Below are positions 8,456 through 14,680 of a stretch of DNA of 64,000 bases, piece by piece. Positions within the stretch are counted from its first letter, which is position 1, and each line of letters opens with the position of its first letter. The position numbers and the translations under genes were made by a program. Below the pieces are notes generated by a model that had not been told where the DNA came from, made no database searches, and saw only the letters and a list, made by a program, of their open reading frames with translations. Source of the DNA: a virus (lineage: Duplodnaviria; Caudoviricetes); the IMG/VR virus record IMGVR_UViG_3300037400_001189, positions 11,007 through 75,006 of that record, one strand, 5' to 3'.

Positions 8456-10304
8456 GGTAATACCGTTTAGACTCCTCTATCTGCCTGTCTTTGGAGAAGT
8501 TTGATATTCTCCTTAGATAGCCGATAATTCTAGTGGCATAGTCCAAGTCTGCAGAACCGCAGGAAGGACAGTACTTCAAGGTATGCTTGTCGATATGTCC
8601 ACACTGGTTGCAGATTGTAATCTTCACGTTGGTAGTCCAGTAGCTGCACCCTACCTGTGCAGCTATGTCCAGAAGCTTTTCATAGGTTTCCTTGTCTGGA
8701 TATTCTTCAAGCTGAAGATGGCATGCAGAACCTCCATCCAGATAGTCTACAATTTCCTTTCCATGAAGAACCATCTTGTCAAGAATGGTTATGTCTTCAG
8801 ATTCAGATGGGAAGAAATAGGAATTGTAGCAGTCTCTTGGAACATAGTATCCATCCTTCTTGTCCCATTGGGCAAACTTGACTCCAAGGGATTCGCCGGG
8901 AACCATTTCAGTGTTGATTTTAACTCCTGCATGCTTCCTGCATGTTTCCTTGTTGCAGTCGCTGATGGCTTCAAGAATGGCTGCACAGAACGACTTATAT
9001 TCCTGATTGTTGGAAGGCTCTATTCCGCATGCTTCTGCAGCTTCCACTAGACCATTGATGCCAATGGTAAGAAACTGCTTGTCAAGGGAAATGTAGCCTG
9101 CATCGTATACAGGAAGCATTCCTCCTGCCTGCAGATCCTTGAACAGAGATCTGTAAGCTAGCTGATACTTGTGCATGAGGAATATCTGTTTTTTCAGTTC
9201 AGGAACCAGATCATCTCTTACGTCTACTACAGGATTTATTCTGGAATATACGTCTTGAGTGAATCTATTCAGATTGAGAGATATTACGTTCATTGAACCA
9301 GTCTGAACTCCTCCTGCTCCCAATGAATAGGAGAAGTCATTTTTGATTTCTTCCAGCTGGTCTCCAATGTAGTTCCTGAGACGGCAGCAGGAAGAGAGAC
9401 TGTCTACAGTATCTGAAGTGTAGATAAAGAAAGAATTGCCTTCAGATAGTTCTTGTGCAGTGAATTCTCTATAATCCTTGTCCAGTACACTATGTCCATC
9501 GTGCAGAAGAGCTACGGTTACTACAGGGAAAGTAAGAAGAGCCTTGGTACGTTCCTTGTTGAACCATTTCATGAAGAACTTCTGCAGCTTGTCTACGGAT
9601 TCCCATTTAGGCTTGTCTCCGTCTGGGAAATAGAAGTTTCCAAACAGGGAATCAAAATAGAACTTGTCAAAGATTGACACGTTCCAAAACACGGATTGAA
9701 AACCGCGTGCAGATGCAGGCTGGTTAAGAGCATACACAGTCTGCTGAAGCTCCTGAGTCACTTCATGCTCATGCGTATCCAGATAGTCGTCTCCATAGTC
9801 CTTTCTTGCAAAGTGATCGAAGCACAGGAAGTATTCTACGGTAGCTACTGCTCCTGCAAACTGGGAAGATATTGCAAAGATAAGATTGATGAATCCGCCA
9901 TTGAATGAAGACAGATGCCTAGGTGCCTTGGATTCCCCACCAAATGCTTTCAGTCCATCCGTGAGAAACGGATACATGGAAATAGCTACGCAATAGGGAA
10001 GAAAGGCGCTAGTTTCGTCATGAGCATAAATAAGGTGGTCTTCAAGCTGCTTAATATACGTTTCAGCAATCTCATCTCCATACAGTTCCTTAATTTTTCT
10101 AGTTACCAAGCCTCTCTTGACCTGAATGTTGATATCCTTGTTTAATTCAGCAAGCATGGTAGCTACGTTCTTGTTGGATACATTGCTGTTAGCGTCAAAG
10201 GTGCTTCCAGTAGCTGCATTGGAAGCCCCTATATAGCTGTCGATGAAGTCTAGTTTAGTTTTTAGCTGTGATTCGGACAGCCTGCACATTTTAGCTTTTG
10301 CCAT
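8439..10304 (-). CDS. nrdD: Anaerobic (class III) ribonucleoside-triphosphate reductase
   Basis: LSSCCRL, VPGESL, Zn site CNQC...CPSCG, and glycyl-radical motif TRIIGYL. Confidence 0.95.
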   Translation of the reverse strand: MAKAKMCRLSESQLKTKLDFIDSYIGASNAATGSTFDANSNVSNKNVATMLAELNKDINIQVKRGLVTRKIKELYGDEIAETYIKQLEDHLIYAHDETSAFLPYCVAISMYPFLTDGLKAFGGESKAPRHLSSFNGGFINLIFAISSQFAGAVATVEYFLCFDHFARKDYGDDYLDTHEHEVTQELQQTVYALNQPASARGFQSVFWNVSIFDKFYFDSLFGNFYFPDGDKPKWESVDKLQKFFMKWFNKERTKALLTFPVVTVALLHDGHSVLDKDYREFTAQELSEGNSFFIYTSDTVDSLSSCCRLRNYIGDQLEEIKNDFSYSLGAGGVQTGSMNVISLNLNRFTQDVYSRINPVVDVRDDLVPELKKQIFLMHKYQLAYRSLFKDLQAGGMLPVYDAGYISLDKQFLTIGINGLVEAAEACGIEPSNNQEYKSFCAAILEAISDCNKETCRKHAGVKINTEMVPGESLGVKFAQWDKKDGYYVPRDCYNSYFFPSESEDITILDKMVLHGKEIVDYLDGGSACHLQLEEYPDKETYEKLLDIAAQVGCSYWTTNVKITICNQCGHIDKHTLKYCPSCGSADLDYATRIIGYLRRISNFSKDRQIEESKRYYHGHDG

Positions 10305-10312
10305 TGCACCTC

Positions 10313-10801
10313 CTATCGGGTGCCTGAACTGCCGAAGCCTTCAGCACCCCTTTCAGTTGAGTCTAATGTCTGAACTTCAATCATCTGCATGAGATAGGAT
10401 TTCTCTATGCAGAACTGGCCTATCCTGTCTCCCTTGGAGATGTTGAATTCATAGTCGTTGGAGTTGTGCATGATAACTCCAATGCTGCCACGATAGGTTT
10501 CGTCTATGGTTCCAGTATGAACAAACAGTCCTCTTGACGCTAAACCGCTTCTTCCTCTTACTATGCCGTGATAGCCTCTGGGGAGCTGCACGGCTATGTT
10601 GGAGTGAACTATGGTAGTGTCGTGAGGATAAACTACGATATCTACATCCGAATAGATATCTAGGCAAGCATCTCCTTCACGGGAATACTTGAAGGGAATG
10701 GCAGTGTCTGTAAGCTTTTTAAAACATACCTGAGCTAGAGTACGGTTAGACGATACTCCAAATTCTACATATGAAACGTCTGTTACTGTTGGGTTGAGCA
10801 T
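10313..10801 (-). CDS. dut: Trimeric dUTPase
   Basis: RGRSGLA, GTIDETYRG, GDRIGQ and RGAEGFGSSG motifs. Confidence 0.92.
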   Translation of the reverse strand: MLNPTVTDVSYVEFGVSSNRTLAQVCFKKLTDTAIPFKYSREGDACLDIYSDVDIVVYPHDTTIVHSNIAVQLPRGYHGIVRGRSGLASRGLFVHTGTIDETYRGSIGVIMHNSNDYEFNISKGDRIGQFCIEKSYLMQMIEVQTLDSTERGAEGFGSSGTR

Positions 10802-11901
10802 TTATCCTCCAGAGAAGCTATTGCATTCTCTATGTCTTCTAGGGAGGCTCCATTAGGAACCTCTGCAGTGTCGTACCAGTTGTAGCCTATCTCTCCTACT
10901 GCTTCGTTATGAACTATCTGGTCTTCCAGAAAGTCTGCAGTCATTATAGGGATGATAGTATCATTTACCCATTTAACTAGCTCTGCATCCTTGTCAATGT
11001 GAATATAGAGAGCATCGTAGATGGAAGAGATAACTTCCACTCTATTTTCTAGATGGTTCTCTGCTATCTTTTCATTGAATCTATGAAGAGAGAGAAGAGA
11101 TAGAATTGACCAGAACTGCGAACAGGCATTGAACACTGTCCGTATTTCCTTTTCAGGATGGTCTGTAGTGATTCTGCATCCTAATCCTAATGGGATATAA
11201 CCTTTGCTTTTAGCCTTGACTAGAACAGTGCTTCTCATCTTGTCTACTCCCTTGTACAGTTCATCGTGATATCTATGAAAGATATTCTCTGCCTGTTCTA
11301 GAGAGCATTTAATGGAAGAAGCTACTTTCTCAGGATATGCGCCGTAGTTTAATCCGAAGCTAACTGGTTTAGACTTTTGGCGTATAGCCTTCAATGCCTT
11401 ATTGCCATTGTCTACTTCTCTTTTAAATCTCTTTACGAATGCATAGAGGTCTTCTCCTTCTTCTCTAGGAAGAATGGCTTCTACTTCATCTGTAAAATAG
11501 TAGTAGGCATTCAAACAGTGACCATCTATGCCTTGAGTGAAGATTGCACATTTATTCTTGTCTCTGGACAGATTGGCTATTACCCTGTCTTCTAGAGCAG
11601 AGAAGTCAACTTGATAGATTAAATGGTCTTTGTCTGTAGACAAGCATTGTTTGATTGGCTTTGCATAGACAGAACCAGTGGAAGGAGCATTTAATAAATT
11701 AGGAGCAGAAGAAGTGAGACGAAATGTTTTAGTACCAAACAGTTTGAAAGAACCGTACAGCCTCCCATTAACAGTATTGTCATAGAAAGCTTTAATGAAG
11801 TTGTTTCTAATGATAGCTGCATTGCTGTAATCTAGCATAGCATTAACTACTTCCTTTAGCTGTTTCAGTTCTTCCAGAGACAAATCGCTTACTATAGGCA
11901 T
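10783..11901 (-). CDS. Family A DNA polymerase, part 3 (end of thumb, palm, fingers)
   Basis: TFRLTSSAPNL, motif A DFSALEDR, motif B RQKSKPVSFGLNYG, motif C SIYDAL. Confidence 0.9.
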   Translation of the reverse strand: MPIVSDLSLEELKQLKEVVNAMLDYSNAAIIRNNFIKAFYDNTVNGRLYGSFKLFGTKTFRLTSSAPNLLNAPSTGSVYAKPIKQCLSTDKDHLIYQVDFSALEDRVIANLSRDKNKCAIFTQGIDGHCLNAYYYFTDEVEAILPREEGEDLYAFVKRFKREVDNGNKALKAIRQKSKPVSFGLNYGAYPEKVASSIKCSLEQAENIFHRYHDELYKGVDKMRSTVLVKAKSKGYIPLGLGCRITTDHPEKEIRTVFNACSQFWSILSLLSLHRFNEKIAENHLENRVEVISSIYDALYIHIDKDAELVKWVNDTIIPIMTADFLEDQIVHNEAVGEIGYNWYDTAEVPNGASLEDIENAIASLEDKCSTQQ

Positions 11902-12218
11902 TACAGTTCATCACTCTTTTCATCAAAGATTTCGTTAGGCTTAAGCCAGCTGTACATATCAGCAAAATAAGCATAGCCTGCAATGTCCACTGCATTGTCT
12001 TGATTCCACTGGTCTAGATCTGGATGGATTCTAGCTATCTTTAACAGCATCATCATTACGGCTACGTCTCTAGGACGTATGTCTATGCCTAGAAAAGTAC
12101 TCCAGTATCTAGATATTAAGACAAATACATCTTCAGGATATCCACCACGTTTGCCAGAAATGATGTCCAATGCCTGACTAAGAACATTCTTTGTTTCCAT
12201 TCTGTTCTCCTTGCTCAA
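11901..12218 (-). CDS. DUF6378-like protein (dATP/dGTP diphosphohydrolase-related fold), inserted inside the polymerase locus
   Basis: RGGYPEDVF...WSTFLG...DVAVMMMLLKIAR...DNAVDIAGYA; own AGGAG RBS before MET at about 12200. Confidence 0.65.
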   Translation of the reverse strand: MSKENRMETKNVLSQALDIISGKRGGYPEDVFVLISRYWSTFLGIDIRPRDVAVMMMLLKIARIHPDLDQWNQDNAVDIAGYAYFADMYSWLKPNEIFDEKSDEL

Positions 12219-12984
12219 TTAAAGTATCTAGAAGCTTGTTAAGCTTCTCCAGTTCATCCCTGTTCCAGCAGGGATTGCCTTTGCCAGTAGTAGCTTCAGA
12301 CTGTATGCCAAGAGAGGAGAAGAATTCCGTCTTCTGCTTTGCAGAACCACAATTGAATTCTTCTGCTTCTTCAGTCATAGCCTTGGTAAGCCTAGGCTCT
12401 ATTTTGCTCTTATAGTAAATATCATACTTGTCTGAAGCTAGCTTAAGCATTGCTCTATGCTTTAAATCGTCTAAGCTTTTATGCTCAGGTTCTTCCAATA
12501 AAAGAGAAAGAACAGGATCCTTATGTACCTTTAGAAGAAGCTTCAGATCTTTTAGAGTCCATTCAGGCTGATAGTAATCCATTTGATTCGTATCTTTCAG
12601 TCTCTGATTAACTAGATAGCTTCTATGAATCTTGTTAGATGGATTGCATTCCTTTGGAGTGAAGTCTTCTACAGTCTTTGCCTTCTGCTGTATGCTAGTG
12701 CATTTTACAGCTTGAGACATTGCAGATTGTTCCTGTCTAAACTTCTGCATAAGAGGATTCTGAAGCATAGTATGCTGTACGTTAGCTAATACGTCTTCTA
12801 CGGTATCTTCTAGAACTCTGACTTTGGAAAGGTCTATTGGAATGCCTGCATTTTGCATTTTAATAATATCCGGAAGAAGCATTGAAACTATATGGTCATA
12901 GAACCATTTGCCATCCTGTTCAGGAGGCACTTCCATAGGTCTAGGAATAGGTAGATATTCAGACATTTCATTCATATCTTCCAT
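12178..12984 (-). CDS. Family A DNA polymerase, part 2 (linker and thumb)
   Basis: MQNAGIPIDL, FNCGSAKQKTEFF (cf. FNLNSPKQL) and TTGKGNPCW thumb motifs. Confidence 0.72.
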   Translation of the reverse strand: MEDMNEMSEYLPIPRPMEVPPEQDGKWFYDHIVSMLLPDIIKMQNAGIPIDLSKVRVLEDTVEDVLANVQHTMLQNPLMQKFRQEQSAMSQAVKCTSIQQKAKTVEDFTPKECNPSNKIHRSYLVNQRLKDTNQMDYYQPEWTLKDLKLLLKVHKDPVLSLLLEEPEHKSLDDLKHRAMLKLASDKYDIYYKSKIEPRLTKAMTEEAEEFNCGSAKQKTEFFSSLGIQSEATTGKGNPCWNRDELEKLNKLLDTLIEQGEQNGNKECS

Positions 12985-13643
12985 GCCTCCAAGTCTTTGA
13001 GTATGTCCTGATACAGTGCATAAGTTGCACAGGCATCAGTAGCTGAATATTCAAGCATATAATCCTTATTCTGCTCTTCAAGAGTGAAACTGTCTTTAGA
13101 CAGTCCCCATTTGGAATACTTGTAGGACATTAATGTTTTCAAGCCAGTTTCTCCCTTGAGATGGTCTGCATTGTTGAGAATAGATTTAGCTAGAAGCTGA
13201 GTGTCTATTACATGCTTGGGAAGCTTATGAGTATAGTAGTAGATTATGCCTCCATCATAACCAAAGTTATGAAAGAGCATTGTCTTGTCTGTATTGACAA
13301 GAAATCTCATTAGCATGTCTACCATGTTAGGGTCTTCACAGACTAGAACATAAGCATCGTGGTCAGACCATGCCACTGACAGATGGGTAACTGTAGTTAA
13401 TGATGGATGTGATAGACCTGTACTGTTGACTGATTGCTTAAGCAGACGCTTCTCTTCTCTAGACAGAACAGGAGAGAACTTATCCAGTCTCCACTGATCC
13501 ATCTTCTTTTGAGAGCCATCTGCTCTTGGAGCCACTTCAAAGTCAGCAGCAAACAGGTCTGGAAGGCTTTCAAGCCATTTGCTTCCCCAGTATGTGCTAG
13601 ACGTGCTCTTGAAGCTTACATGCAGCGGCTGAGAGCTTGTCAT
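12972..13643 (-). CDS. Family A DNA polymerase, part 1 (3'-5' exonuclease)
   Basis: ExoI ADFE, ExoII FHNFGYD and ExoIII YSATD motifs. Confidence 0.82.
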   Translation of the reverse strand: MTSSQPLHVSFKSTSSTYWGSKWLESLPDLFAADFEVAPRADGSQKKMDQWRLDKFSPVLSREEKRLLKQSVNSTGLSHPSLTTVTHLSVAWSDHDAYVLVCEDPNMVDMLMRFLVNTDKTMLFHNFGYDGGIIYYYTHKLPKHVIDTQLLAKSILNNADHLKGETGLKTLMSYKYSKWGLSKDSFTLEEQNKDYMLEYSATDACATYALYQDILKDLEAWKI

Positions 13644-13860
13644 AGACTGTGTTCCTTATGTATTCCTTAATAGGACCAAGAGCATCGTACCATGAAACAG
13701 GGATATTCTCTGCATTGATAGTAATATTATTGTTTTTAATGTTAAATTCGTATTCTAGCAGAAATGGATAGTCGTTAATAGTGCAGATGACTGAACCAGT
13801 GCATTTATGCAGTTCATTTACATTTGCAAAGAAACAGTTGACATTAATTGGTTCACTCAT
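13597..13860 (-). CDS. Hypothetical protein, paralog of 13870-14142
   Basis: Shared HKCxGxVxCxIN...EYE(F/Y) and IKxxIxN motifs. Confidence 0.7.
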   Translation of the reverse strand: MSEPINVNCFFANVNELHKCTGSVICTINDYPFLLEYEFNIKNNNITINAENIPVSWYDALGPIKEYIRNTVYDKLSAAACKLQEHV

Positions 13861-13869
13861 GAAATCCTC

Positions 13870-14142
13870 CTAAAATTTACAGAGATAGCTTCTAAGCTGA
13901 TTCTTAATAAATTTCTTTATTTCATCTAGGTGTCTATATGCTTCATCTAAATTAAAGCCTGATATATTGAAGGTATTAAGGTCATCCATAGTAACATCAT
14001 ACTCATATTCAACCTTATAGTTGTTTCCATTAATATGGCATACTACGTTGCCTTTGCACTTGTGAGTTTCATGAATCTCTACTGCAAAAGGAATAAATGT
14101 ATCTTTCTCTTTAAGTTCTTCAGCTTCCATCGTTATCTCCAT
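13870..14142 (-). CDS. Hypothetical protein, paralog of 13597-13860
   Basis: Same shared motifs as the adjacent ORF. Confidence 0.7.
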   Translation of the reverse strand: MEITMEAEELKEKDTFIPFAVEIHETHKCKGNVVCHINGNNYKVEYEYDVTMDDLNTFNISGFNLDEAYRHLDEIKKFIKNQLRSYLCKF

Positions 14143-14347
14143 ATTGGTGGTTTTCCTGATAAAAAAAGAGTGCTCTATATTTCAAGAGCACTCTAATAGC
14201 AATGTACGACTTCCGTGCTTCAGTTGCCGTACCTCCTCTACTCCTATAGCACTCAAGTATCCGGTCATGGAGGATTGGAGTCAGGACTTTTAAGCAGTAG
14301 TGCTCATTTAAGTAGTTCGCTGCTGCCTGAAAAAGATTGTTAAACAT
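14120..14347 (-). CDS. Hypothetical protein
   Basis: 75-aa ORF in the tightly packed operon. Confidence 0.5.
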   Translation of the reverse strand: MFNNLFQAAANYLNEHYCLKVLTPILHDRILECYRSRGGTATEARKSYIAIRVLLKYRALFFYQENHQYGDNDGS

Positions 14348-14368
14348 AACCTAATGCACTTTAAGGTT

Positions 14369-14680
14369 CTATTCATGTTCCTTATCTAGTCTGCATTCTT
14401 TGCCTTCCTTGCATTGACTTATCACATCCTGCTGATTTTCATATGGATCAGTTTTCAATGCATCGTAGACAGTCTCTCCAACTACAGTTCCAGCTGCAGC
14501 TCCTCCCATTGAACTGAATGCAGTTCCCCAATGGCTAGAAGTTCTTGCTGGAGCTTTTCTAGTCATCATACGCATGACTCTTATATAGCTTCCTCTTCGT
14601 GCATCTGCACAGTCGGCTAATGCAAGACTTCCTGCCATAGCGACAATCAATGCAATGGAACATAGCTTAAGAAGTTTCAT
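14369..14680 (-). CDS. Secreted or membrane protein with signal peptide and glycine-zipper segment
   Basis: MKLLKLCSIALIVAMAGSLALA signal; MGGAAAGTVVG; AGGAG RBS. Confidence 0.7.
   Translation of the reverse strand: MKLLKLCSIALIVAMAGSLALADCADARRGSYIRVMRMMTRKAPARTSSHWGTAFSSMGGAAAGTVVGETVYDALKTDPYENQQDVISQCKEGKECRLDKEHE

What the first reader, a model, noticed from the sequence alone, without database searches (positions are those of the whole stretch)
10783..13643. Family A DNA polymerase encoded as three separate polypeptides with an unrelated gene wedged into the thumb
Seen: exonuclease (223 aa), linker/thumb (about 265 aa) and palm/fingers (372 aa) are separate ORFs in different frames. 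Together they make about 860 aa, a normal full-length PolA. The break between parts 2 and 3 falls in the thumb and is occupied by a 105-aa DUF6378-like gene with its own RBS that overlaps both neighbours. I see no intron, intein or homing endonuclease at the breaks, and all catalytic motifs are intact. Inference: a naturally tripartite replicase assembled in trans, possibly co-regulated with a nucleotide-sanitising enzyme.
Basis: partly seen in the sequence, partly recalled or inferred. Interest (0 to 1): 0.72.

Follow-up and report, generated by a model that had tools for sequence, protein, structure and literature searches.

The report
Three-gene phage DNA polymerase, thumb split
A complete 75-kb N4-like phage encodes its only DNA polymerase as three separate genes, with one cut at the tip of the DNA-gripping thumb; this cut is shared by a large group of uncultured relatives that keep changing sets of unrelated small genes in the gap, so the split is natural but a new variant of a known kind.

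Summary
On the minus strand lie exo (12972-13643), p2 (12178-12984; N-terminal palm plus most of the thumb), a DUF6378 gene (11901-12200) and p3 (10783-11901; thumb helix I, palm and fingers). All overlap and appear translationally coupled.

It is not an artefact. Two independent assemblies (95-97% identity) have the same layout, and dN/dS is 0.03-0.07 for every piece. The p2|p3 cut loses nothing: profile positions 8-252 and 255-607 are covered. It falls between thumb helices H2 and I.

Rfam finds no intron in the gap, yet it finds group I introns elsewhere in this gene in relatives. There is no room for an intein. Eleven stops of all three kinds block read-through.

The cut is inherited. Thirty-nine stand-alone p2 clusters were found, 34 of them in one clade, and 79 of the top 119 p3 clusters are p3-only. 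The exo|pol cut is older and common to the whole family.

The gap is a variable cargo slot (DUF6378, DUF932, a dGTP diphosphohydrolase domain, DnaJ, or only a 43-aa ORF), so DUF6378 is not an obligate partner. Nothing supports a nucleotide-sanitising role for it.

Assembly of the pieces in trans is inferred, not shown. Split PolAs are published at other cut sites, and this scan has noted several on other DNA.

The parts
12972..13643 (-). exo: stand-alone 3'-5' proofreading exonuclease subunit (223 aa)
   Evidence: PF01612 at 32 bits and phrog_25155 at 1e-47. The DxE, NxxYD and YxxxD motifs are present. AAGGA lies 9 nt before the ATG. dN/dS is 0.03-0.04. It is a separate ORF in nearly all relatives.
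12178..12984 (-). p2: N-terminal palm helices plus thumb helices H to H2, with a helical insertion of about 130 aa (268 aa; probably starts at ATG 12975, overlapping the exo stop as ATGA)
   Evidence: Covers positions 8-252 of the profile of continuous homologs. Aligns to Klenow 517-569 and from 571 to about 618. dN/dS is 0.07. Thirty-nine stand-alone representative clusters share a conserved tail.
11901..12200 (-). DUF6378 gene in the gap (99 aa from ATG 12200; the ORF is open from TTG 12218)
   Evidence: PF19905 at 64 bits. AAGGAG lies 6 nt upstream. It overlaps p2 by 23 nt and p3 by 1 nt. dN/dS is 0.03-0.05. The AF2 model is a four-helix bundle at pLDDT 68 with no significant fold match.
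10783..11901 (-). p3: thumb helix I plus palm and fingers with motifs A, B and C (372 aa)
   Evidence: PF00476 at 102 bits, model positions 63-380. Covers profile positions 257-607. dN/dS is 0.045. The start overlaps the DUF6378 stop as TAATG and has no clear SD. Of the top 119 clusters, 79 are p3-only.
10313..10801 (-). dUTPase, next gene of the same overlapping operon (context, not part of the polymerase)
   Evidence: PF00692 at 111 bits. It overlaps p3 by 19 nt and has GGAGG before its ATG.

Best explanation
The phage's only DNA polymerase is a family A enzyme made from three separately translated proteins. These are a proofreading exonuclease, p2 (the start of the palm plus thumb helices H to H2, with a helical insertion of about 130 residues), and p3 (thumb helix I, the rest of the palm and the fingers, with all catalytic motifs). 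The p2|p3 cut is a clean fission in the variable loop at the thumb tip. Inferred mechanism: the two long antiparallel stem helices of the thumb, now on different chains, pack against each other, and the p2 N-terminal helices pack on the p3 palm, which rebuilds a normal pol domain non-covalently. The split forms have gained about 16-25 junction residues: a longer amphipathic helix with an acidic tail on p2, and a fixed head of the MSLEDMSLEEL type on p3. These may act as a clasp. The exonuclease docks as in other PolAs whose exo and pol are separate genes. Overlapping stops and starts (ATGA, a 23-nt overlap, TAATG) couple translation of the pieces. Once the gene was split, the gap became a tolerated slot for unrelated small genes, and DUF6378 is this lineage's occupant. 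Shown here: the gene structure, its conservation, purifying selection, the position of the cut and the absence of detectable splicing elements. Inferred: complex formation, the clasp and translational coupling.
For: The same layout occurs in two independent assemblies at 95-97% protein identity, with dS 0.17-0.53 and dN/dS 0.03-0.07 for all four genes. The break is clean, covering profile 8-252 and 255-607. It maps between Klenow helix H2 and helix I. In the AF2 model of a continuous relative (pLDDT 93) it lies in a 4-residue loop that is the least confident stretch of the model, and the model superposes on Klenow 519-928 with Z about 30. Rfam finds nothing in the gap of the window, L007 or L008, but finds group I introns at 69-109 bits inside p3 of L006, L015 and L016. 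Thirty-nine stand-alone p2 clusters exist, 34 of them in one clade of 38. Seventy-nine of 119 top p3 clusters are p3-only, and 41 have an identical 25-residue head length. The frame relation of p2 and p3 differs among lineages, and the gap runs from 134 nt to about 2 kb. This is the only PolA and there is no PolB in a complete genome with terminal repeats. Precedents exist: exo|pol fission with a predicted preserved complex in T7-like cyanophages (PMC10201439), viable OM43 phages with a PolA split before motif A (PMC10580990), and PhiKZ split PolB shown to be a 1:1 complex (PMC13648687).
Against: No complex, activity, transcript or peptide data exist for this enzyme. No multimer prediction could be run. 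Motif C lacks the usual Glu (YDA), although this is family-wide. The tree supports for the split clade are moderate (SH-aLRT 84-90), with four continuous forms nested inside and five split forms outside, so the number of origins and re-fusions is not settled. The clasp idea rests only on conserved sequence patterns.
Confidence: 0.78

Rival explanations
1. The pieces are rejoined into one chain, either by a self-splicing intron that carries the gap genes or by protein splicing or trans-splicing.
For: Group I introns are common in this very gene family. In the window, p2 and p3 happen to share a reading frame.
Against: No Rfam match at E <= 1 was found in the window gap, nor at E <= 0.1 in L007 and L008, while the same scan found introns in p3 of relatives. 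The window gap is almost fully occupied by a gene with its own SD. The gap is 134 nt in L051. Frames differ among lineages. The p2 tail is only 8-17 aa and the p3 head 8-10 aa, with no intein blocks and no Pfam intein hit.
Confidence: 0.04
2. p3 alone, with or without exo, is the working polymerase, and p2 has drifted to another role or is dispensable.
For: All catalytic motifs lie in p3. p2 has no Pfam hit of its own.
Against: p2 is under purifying selection (dN/dS 0.07). It aligns end to end with the N-terminal 250 residues of continuous homologs. It always lies upstream of p3 where both are seen on a contig. It supplies half of the thumb and the N-terminal palm helices of the fold.
Confidence: 0.08
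3. The split is an assembly or sequencing error, or a recently inactivated gene.
For: The record is a single metagenome-derived sequence.
Against: Identical architecture occurs in two other assemblies and in diverged lineages. dN/dS is low. Hundreds of stand-alone p2 and p3 proteins exist in public data. This is the only polymerase in a complete genome.
Confidence: 0.01
4. Ribosomal frameshifting, stop-codon read-through or bypassing fuses the pieces.
For: The genes overlap, and exo and p2 differ by one frame.
Against: Eleven stops of all three kinds lie in the p2 frame across the gap. I saw no slippery heptamer in the exo/p2 overlap. In relatives, exo and p2 are up to about 750-1100 nt apart.
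Confidence: 0.01

Closest known systems
Exo|pol gene fission in S-SBP1-like T7-like cyanophage PolAs (Czernecki et al. 2023, PMC10201439)
   Same: The proofreading domain and the pol domain are separate adjacent genes, no splicing is involved, and the complex is predicted to be preserved. This matches break 1 here.
   Different: It is a different PolA subfamily and has only two pieces, with no cut inside the pol domain. Here the exo is separate in nearly the whole family, and in some relatives it lies more than 700 nt away.
MEP401/MEP402-type OM43 phage PolA (Zobellviridae; PMC10580990)
   Same: The pol domain is divided into two ORFs with a small unknown ORF between them, in cultured viable phages. 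L051 here has the same exo+N-pol | small ORF | C-pol layout.
   Different: The MEP401 cut lies at PF00476 positions 132-154, just before motif A. The cut here lies about 90 residues earlier (window p3 begins at PF00476 position 63), at the thumb tip. The p2 search did not find MEP401.
PhiKZ split family B DNA polymerase, DNAP-N plus DNAP-C (PMC13648687)
   Same: A phage replicative polymerase encoded as two genes and shown to form a stable 1:1 complex.
   Different: It is family B, with a different fold position of the cut, and it has experimental proof, which is lacking here.
Genes in pieces made by homing-endonuclease insertion (Aeromonas phage Aeh1 nrdA split by mobE; split gp43 of some T4-like phages; from my own knowledge, not checked here)
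   Same: An essential phage enzyme is cut by inserted DNA and works as non-covalently associated fragments.
   Different: No endonuclease gene lies in any of the gaps examined here. The gap content is varied cargo.
Thumb-tip insertions of phage PolAs (T7 thioredoxin-binding domain; phiKMV-like insertion of about 100 aa; PMC10201439)
   Same: The thumb tip is the part of the fold that tolerates large changes. This family also has an insertion of about 130 aa there.
   Different: Those are insertions within one chain. Here the chain itself is broken.

Membership tests
Family A DNA polymerase (Pol I-like) | Pfam DNA_pol_A and 3'-5' exonuclease matches above the curated cut-offs | tested here: met
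   p3 matches PF00476 at 102.5 bits (cut-off 34.3) and exo matches PF01612 at 32 bits (cut-off 23.6).
Family A DNA polymerase (Pol I-like) | Complete pol-domain fold (palm, thumb, fingers) | tested here: met
   p2 and p3 together cover positions 8-607 of the continuous-homolog profile. The model of the continuous relative P0031 superposes on Klenow 519-928 with Z 29-30 and rmsd 2.3-2.6 A. The window pieces themselves were not modelled.
Family A DNA polymerase (Pol I-like) | Catalytic Asp of motif A and Asp of motif C, and the motif B R...K...F...YG pattern | tested here: met
   VDFSALEDR, RQKSKPVSFGLNYG and IYDALY are present in p3. The Glu after the motif C Asp is Ala, as it is Ser or Ala family-wide.
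Split (genes-in-pieces) polymerase without splicing | Pieces are separate ORFs with their own starts, and the break is conserved in diverged relatives under purifying selection | tested here: met
Split (genes-in-pieces) polymerase without splicing | Pieces associate into an active enzyme | not testable with these tools
   No multimer prediction or experiment was available.
Group I intron-interrupted gene | Ribozyme core between the exons | tested here: not met
   No Rfam match in window 10000-14500 at E <= 1, and none in the gaps of L007 and L008. Positive controls scored 69-109 bits in p3 of L006, L015 and L016.
Intein or split intein | Hint-domain blocks at the junction (roughly 100 aa on the N side and 35 aa on the C side) | tested here: not met
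   The p2 tail extends 8-17 aa and the p3 head 8-10 aa beyond the homologous point. There is no intein Pfam hit.
DUF6378 (PF19905) | Pfam match above the cut-off | tested here: met
   64.2 bits against a cut-off of 27.1. The Atlas neighbours are all DUF6378 clusters.
MazG-like or dATP/dGTP diphosphohydrolase (nucleotide-sanitising) for the DUF6378 protein | Sequence-profile or fold similarity to the family | tested here: inconclusive
   hhalign of the DUF6378 alignment against the PF18909 protein of L043 gave probability 0.1%. In Foldseek the best hit was E 0.93 and a MazG-like chain ranked 50th at E 8.5, on a model of only pLDDT 68.

The most novel reading that the evidence does not exclude
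The open thumb tip is functional rather than merely tolerated. The conserved p2 tail and p3 head would form a new non-covalent clasp that either binds a processivity or regulatory partner (as the T7 thumb tip binds thioredoxin) or lets the phage control polymerase assembly. Under this reading the genes kept in the gap, such as DUF6378 and DUF932, would be translated in step with the pieces because they act on the replisome.
Probability: 0.12. Interest if true: 0.7.

Novelty: new variant of a known kind. Interest (0 to 1): 0.5.

Why it matters
It shows that a family A replicase can be cut at the thumb tip, between helices H2 and I, in addition to the known exo|pol fission, and still serve as the sole polymerase of a successful and diversified phage lineage. 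That gives a natural design for three-piece or split PolA enzymes. It marks a cut site different from the published MEP401 site. It also shows that a fission site can become a stable slot for cargo genes. For annotation, the 250-270 aa p2 proteins have no Pfam hit of their own and could be left unannotated, while the 360-380 aa p3 proteins are not truncated polymerases.

Tried and rejected
Intron: the Rfam E-value scans were negative in the gap, with positive controls elsewhere in the gene. Intein or split intein: there is no room for one and no motifs. A duplicated junction segment, which I suspected from a first alignment, was not borne out. The profile shows no overlap, only extended helices. 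DUF6378 as an obligate polymerase partner is rejected, because the gap lacks it in L043 and L051 and in the sequenced parts of L040-L042. DUF6378 as a MazG-like enzyme has no support. Cultured phages with a stand-alone p2: none found, only seven Alteromonas phages with continuous genes. The MAFFT mapping of fragments onto P0031 was unreliable, so I placed the break by motif instead.
Full report
GENE LAYOUT. The window is bases 11007-75006 of a complete 75,006-bp virus record with direct terminal repeats. Other notes of this scan call it a divergent N4-like podophage. Its closest cultured relatives by polymerase are Alteromonas podophages at about 49% identity, one of which shows part of a 6.2-kb RNA polymerase gene in the fetched region. 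On the minus strand, one search lists exo (12972-13643, 223 aa), p2 (12178-12984, 268 aa), a DUF6378 ORF (11901-12218) and p3 (10783-11901, 372 aa), followed by dUTPase and NrdD. Pfam and PHROGs confirm the identities. p2 and p3 hit one 611-position polymerase PHROG at positions 24-255 and 260-607. Exo hits a separate 223-position PHROG.

INITIATION CONTEXTS. Exo has AAGGA upstream. p2 most likely starts at ATG 12975, which is 10 nt after GGAGG and overlaps the exo stop as ATGA. DUF6378 starts at ATG 12200, 6 nt after AAGGAG and inside the end of p2. p3 has no clear SD, and its ATG overlaps the DUF6378 stop as TAATG. dUTPase overlaps p3 by 19 nt. No promoter-like or terminator-like signal stands out within the block. 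I infer one operon with coupled translation.

p2 and p3 are in the same frame but are separated by 276 nt holding 11 stops of all three kinds. Motif C is YDA rather than HDE, as in the whole family.

THE SPLIT IS REAL AND UNDER SELECTION. Two other assemblies (L005/L018 and L006/L017, 95-97% protein identity) have the same four-gene layout. Against them, dS is 0.17-0.53 and dN/dS is 0.03-0.07 for exo, p2, DUF6378 and p3. The genome has one PolA and no PolB.

WHERE THE CUTS ARE. A profile of continuous homologs is covered by p2 at positions 8-252 and by p3 at 255-607. Nothing is lost or duplicated. A profile search of PDB sequences aligns the region to Klenow. The cut lies between the STSEEVLEELA helix (H2, to about residue 618) and the LPKVILEYR631 helix (I). 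p2 also carries about 130 extra residues between Klenow 569 and 571. An AF2 model of P0031, a continuous relative nested in the split clade (pLDDT 93.2), shows helix 236-252, a loop at 253-256 and the long helix 257-290. The two blocks covering residues 241-260 are the least confident of the model. The model superposes on Klenow 519-928 with Z about 30. So p2 holds one thumb stem helix (162-197 in the model) and p3 holds the other.

Measured between the W.R and DYS anchors, continuous outgroups have 29-31 residues, whereas split forms have 20-29 plus 25-26. The extra residues are a longer amphipathic helix with an acidic end on p2 (L..LL..LIE, conserved in the stand-alone p2 proteins) and a fixed head on p3. 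In 41 of 79 p3-only clusters that head is exactly 25 residues long, of the MSLEDMSLEELK type.

NO SPLICING ELEMENTS. Rfam at permissive thresholds finds nothing in window 10000-14500 or in the gaps of L007 and L008. The same run finds group I introns inside p3 of L006 (100 bits, with an HNH/NUMOD endonuclease ORF), L015 and L016. The junction extensions are far too short for intein halves. The p2/p3 frame relation differs among lineages: it is the same in the window and L043 but different in L007, L008 and L051.

HOW WIDESPREAD THE SPLIT IS. A full HMMER scan of 1.84 billion representatives with p2 gave 143 hits. Classified against the profile, 39 end at positions 247-259 (stand-alone p2, 245-273 aa) and 69 continue into p3. 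In a tree of the p2 region, 34 of the 39 lie in one clade of 38 rows (SH-aLRT 84-90), with four continuous forms nested inside. The label needs at least 4 changes on well-supported branches. P0031 has a 41-residue junction resembling a p2 tail joined to a p3 head, which suggests re-fusion, though weakly.

With p3 as query, 79 of the top 119 clusters are p3-only (340-390 aa), several of them on 72-77 kb contigs. Continuous forms appear only at <=54% identity. No cultured phage in the collection has a stand-alone p2.

Exo is a separate ORF in nearly all relatives, sometimes more than 700 nt from the pol gene. Forms of 740-930 aa with exo fused also exist. L051/P0055 has exo fused to p2 while still being cut before p3. 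The family therefore shows all four architectures.

WHAT THE GAP HOLDS. The window group has DUF6378 alone. L007 has DUF932, a predicted membrane protein, a 151-aa DUF6378 protein and an 88-aa ORF. L008/L056 has zinc-finger-like and coiled-coil ORFs, a DUF6378 protein, a DnaJ-domain protein and a zinc-ribbon-like ORF. L043 has a small ORF, DUF932 and a dATP/dGTP diphosphohydrolase N-domain protein. L040-L042 show DUF932-like ORFs, named from their likeness to the L007 and L043 proteins (no Pfam run on these three). L051 has only a 43-aa ORF in 134 nt. No endonuclease was found in any gap.

DUF6378 ITSELF. It is a phage-restricted family, frequent in mycobacteriophage replication modules next to primase or NrdH. 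Its model is a moderate-confidence four-helix bundle with no significant PDB match and no profile similarity to the diphosphohydrolase. The three papers that mention it only list it as an annotation.

COMPARISON WITH THE LITERATURE. Exo|pol fission was reported as a first for PolAs in T7-like cyanophages, with a predicted intact complex (PMC10201439). The same paper documents thumb-tip insertions such as the T7 thioredoxin-binding domain. OM43 phages MEP401/402 have exo+N-pol | small ORF | C-pol (PMC10580990). I mapped their cut to PF00476 positions 132-154, just before motif A, which is about 90 residues downstream of the cut described here. PhiKZ split PolB is an experimentally shown 1:1 complex (PMC13648687). 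I found no paper describing a PolA cut between thumb helices H2 and I or a three-gene PolA, though the library is incomplete. Earlier notes of this scan report split PolAs, some cut in the thumb, in other genomes.

VERDICT. The feature is real, natural and inherited. It is a new variant of the known class of split phage polymerases, with a distinct cut site, three pieces and a cargo slot. Function in trans is likely but untested.

Noticed in passing
L006:5784-6827 (relative at 96% identity; corresponds to window p3 residue 261, about window 11120): The near-identical relative carries a group I intron of about 1 kb (Rfam 100 bits) with a 241-aa HNH/NUMOD endonuclease ORF, inserted at FNA|CSQFW in p3. 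The window and L005 lack it, so intron presence varies among near-identical phages.
   Followed up: partly
L015, L016, L012; representatives P0028, P0041, P0039, P0061 and others: This PolA family is heavily invaded. L015 and L016 carry two to four group I intron matches inside p3. Many database proteins stop at profile positions of about 311 (TSNSP motif), 347 (motif A) and 428 (motif B), which look like exon-1 ORFs at intron hot spots.
   Followed up: partly
window 12178-12984 (p2), Klenow 569/571 equivalent: The whole family, split or not, has a helical insertion of about 130 residues in the thumb relative to Klenow. This is near the site where T7 and phiKMV-like polymerases carry their thumb-tip insertions. 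Its role is unknown.
   Followed up: no
window 10783-11901 (p3), motif C: Motif C reads IYDALY (IYDS in relatives) instead of VHDE. The second acidic residue of the canonical motif is missing in the whole family, including cultured Alteromonas phages.
   Followed up: partly
window 13597-13860 and 13870-14142: Two adjacent small ORFs (87 and 90 aa) upstream of exo look like tandem paralogs. The 87-aa protein hits two neighbouring places in L005 and L006, at 97-99% and 32% identity. Neither has a Pfam family.
   Followed up: no
L043:7898-8383; L007:944-1882; L041:926-1873: In other split lineages the p2|p3 gap holds a genuine dATP/dGTP diphosphohydrolase N-domain gene (L043). A DUF932 gene recurs in five loci, confirmed by Pfam in L007 and L043 and named by sequence likeness in L040-L042. 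DUF932 may be the older occupant of the slot.
   Followed up: partly
P0031 residues 234-274: A continuous polymerase nested in the split clade has a 41-residue junction that resembles a p2 tail fused to a p3 head. This would be a possible re-fusion of a formerly split gene.
   Followed up: partly
L006:2116-2187: A tRNA gene (Rfam 66 bits) lies about 1.1 kb upstream of exo in the close relative. I did not check whether the window has it.
   Followed up: no
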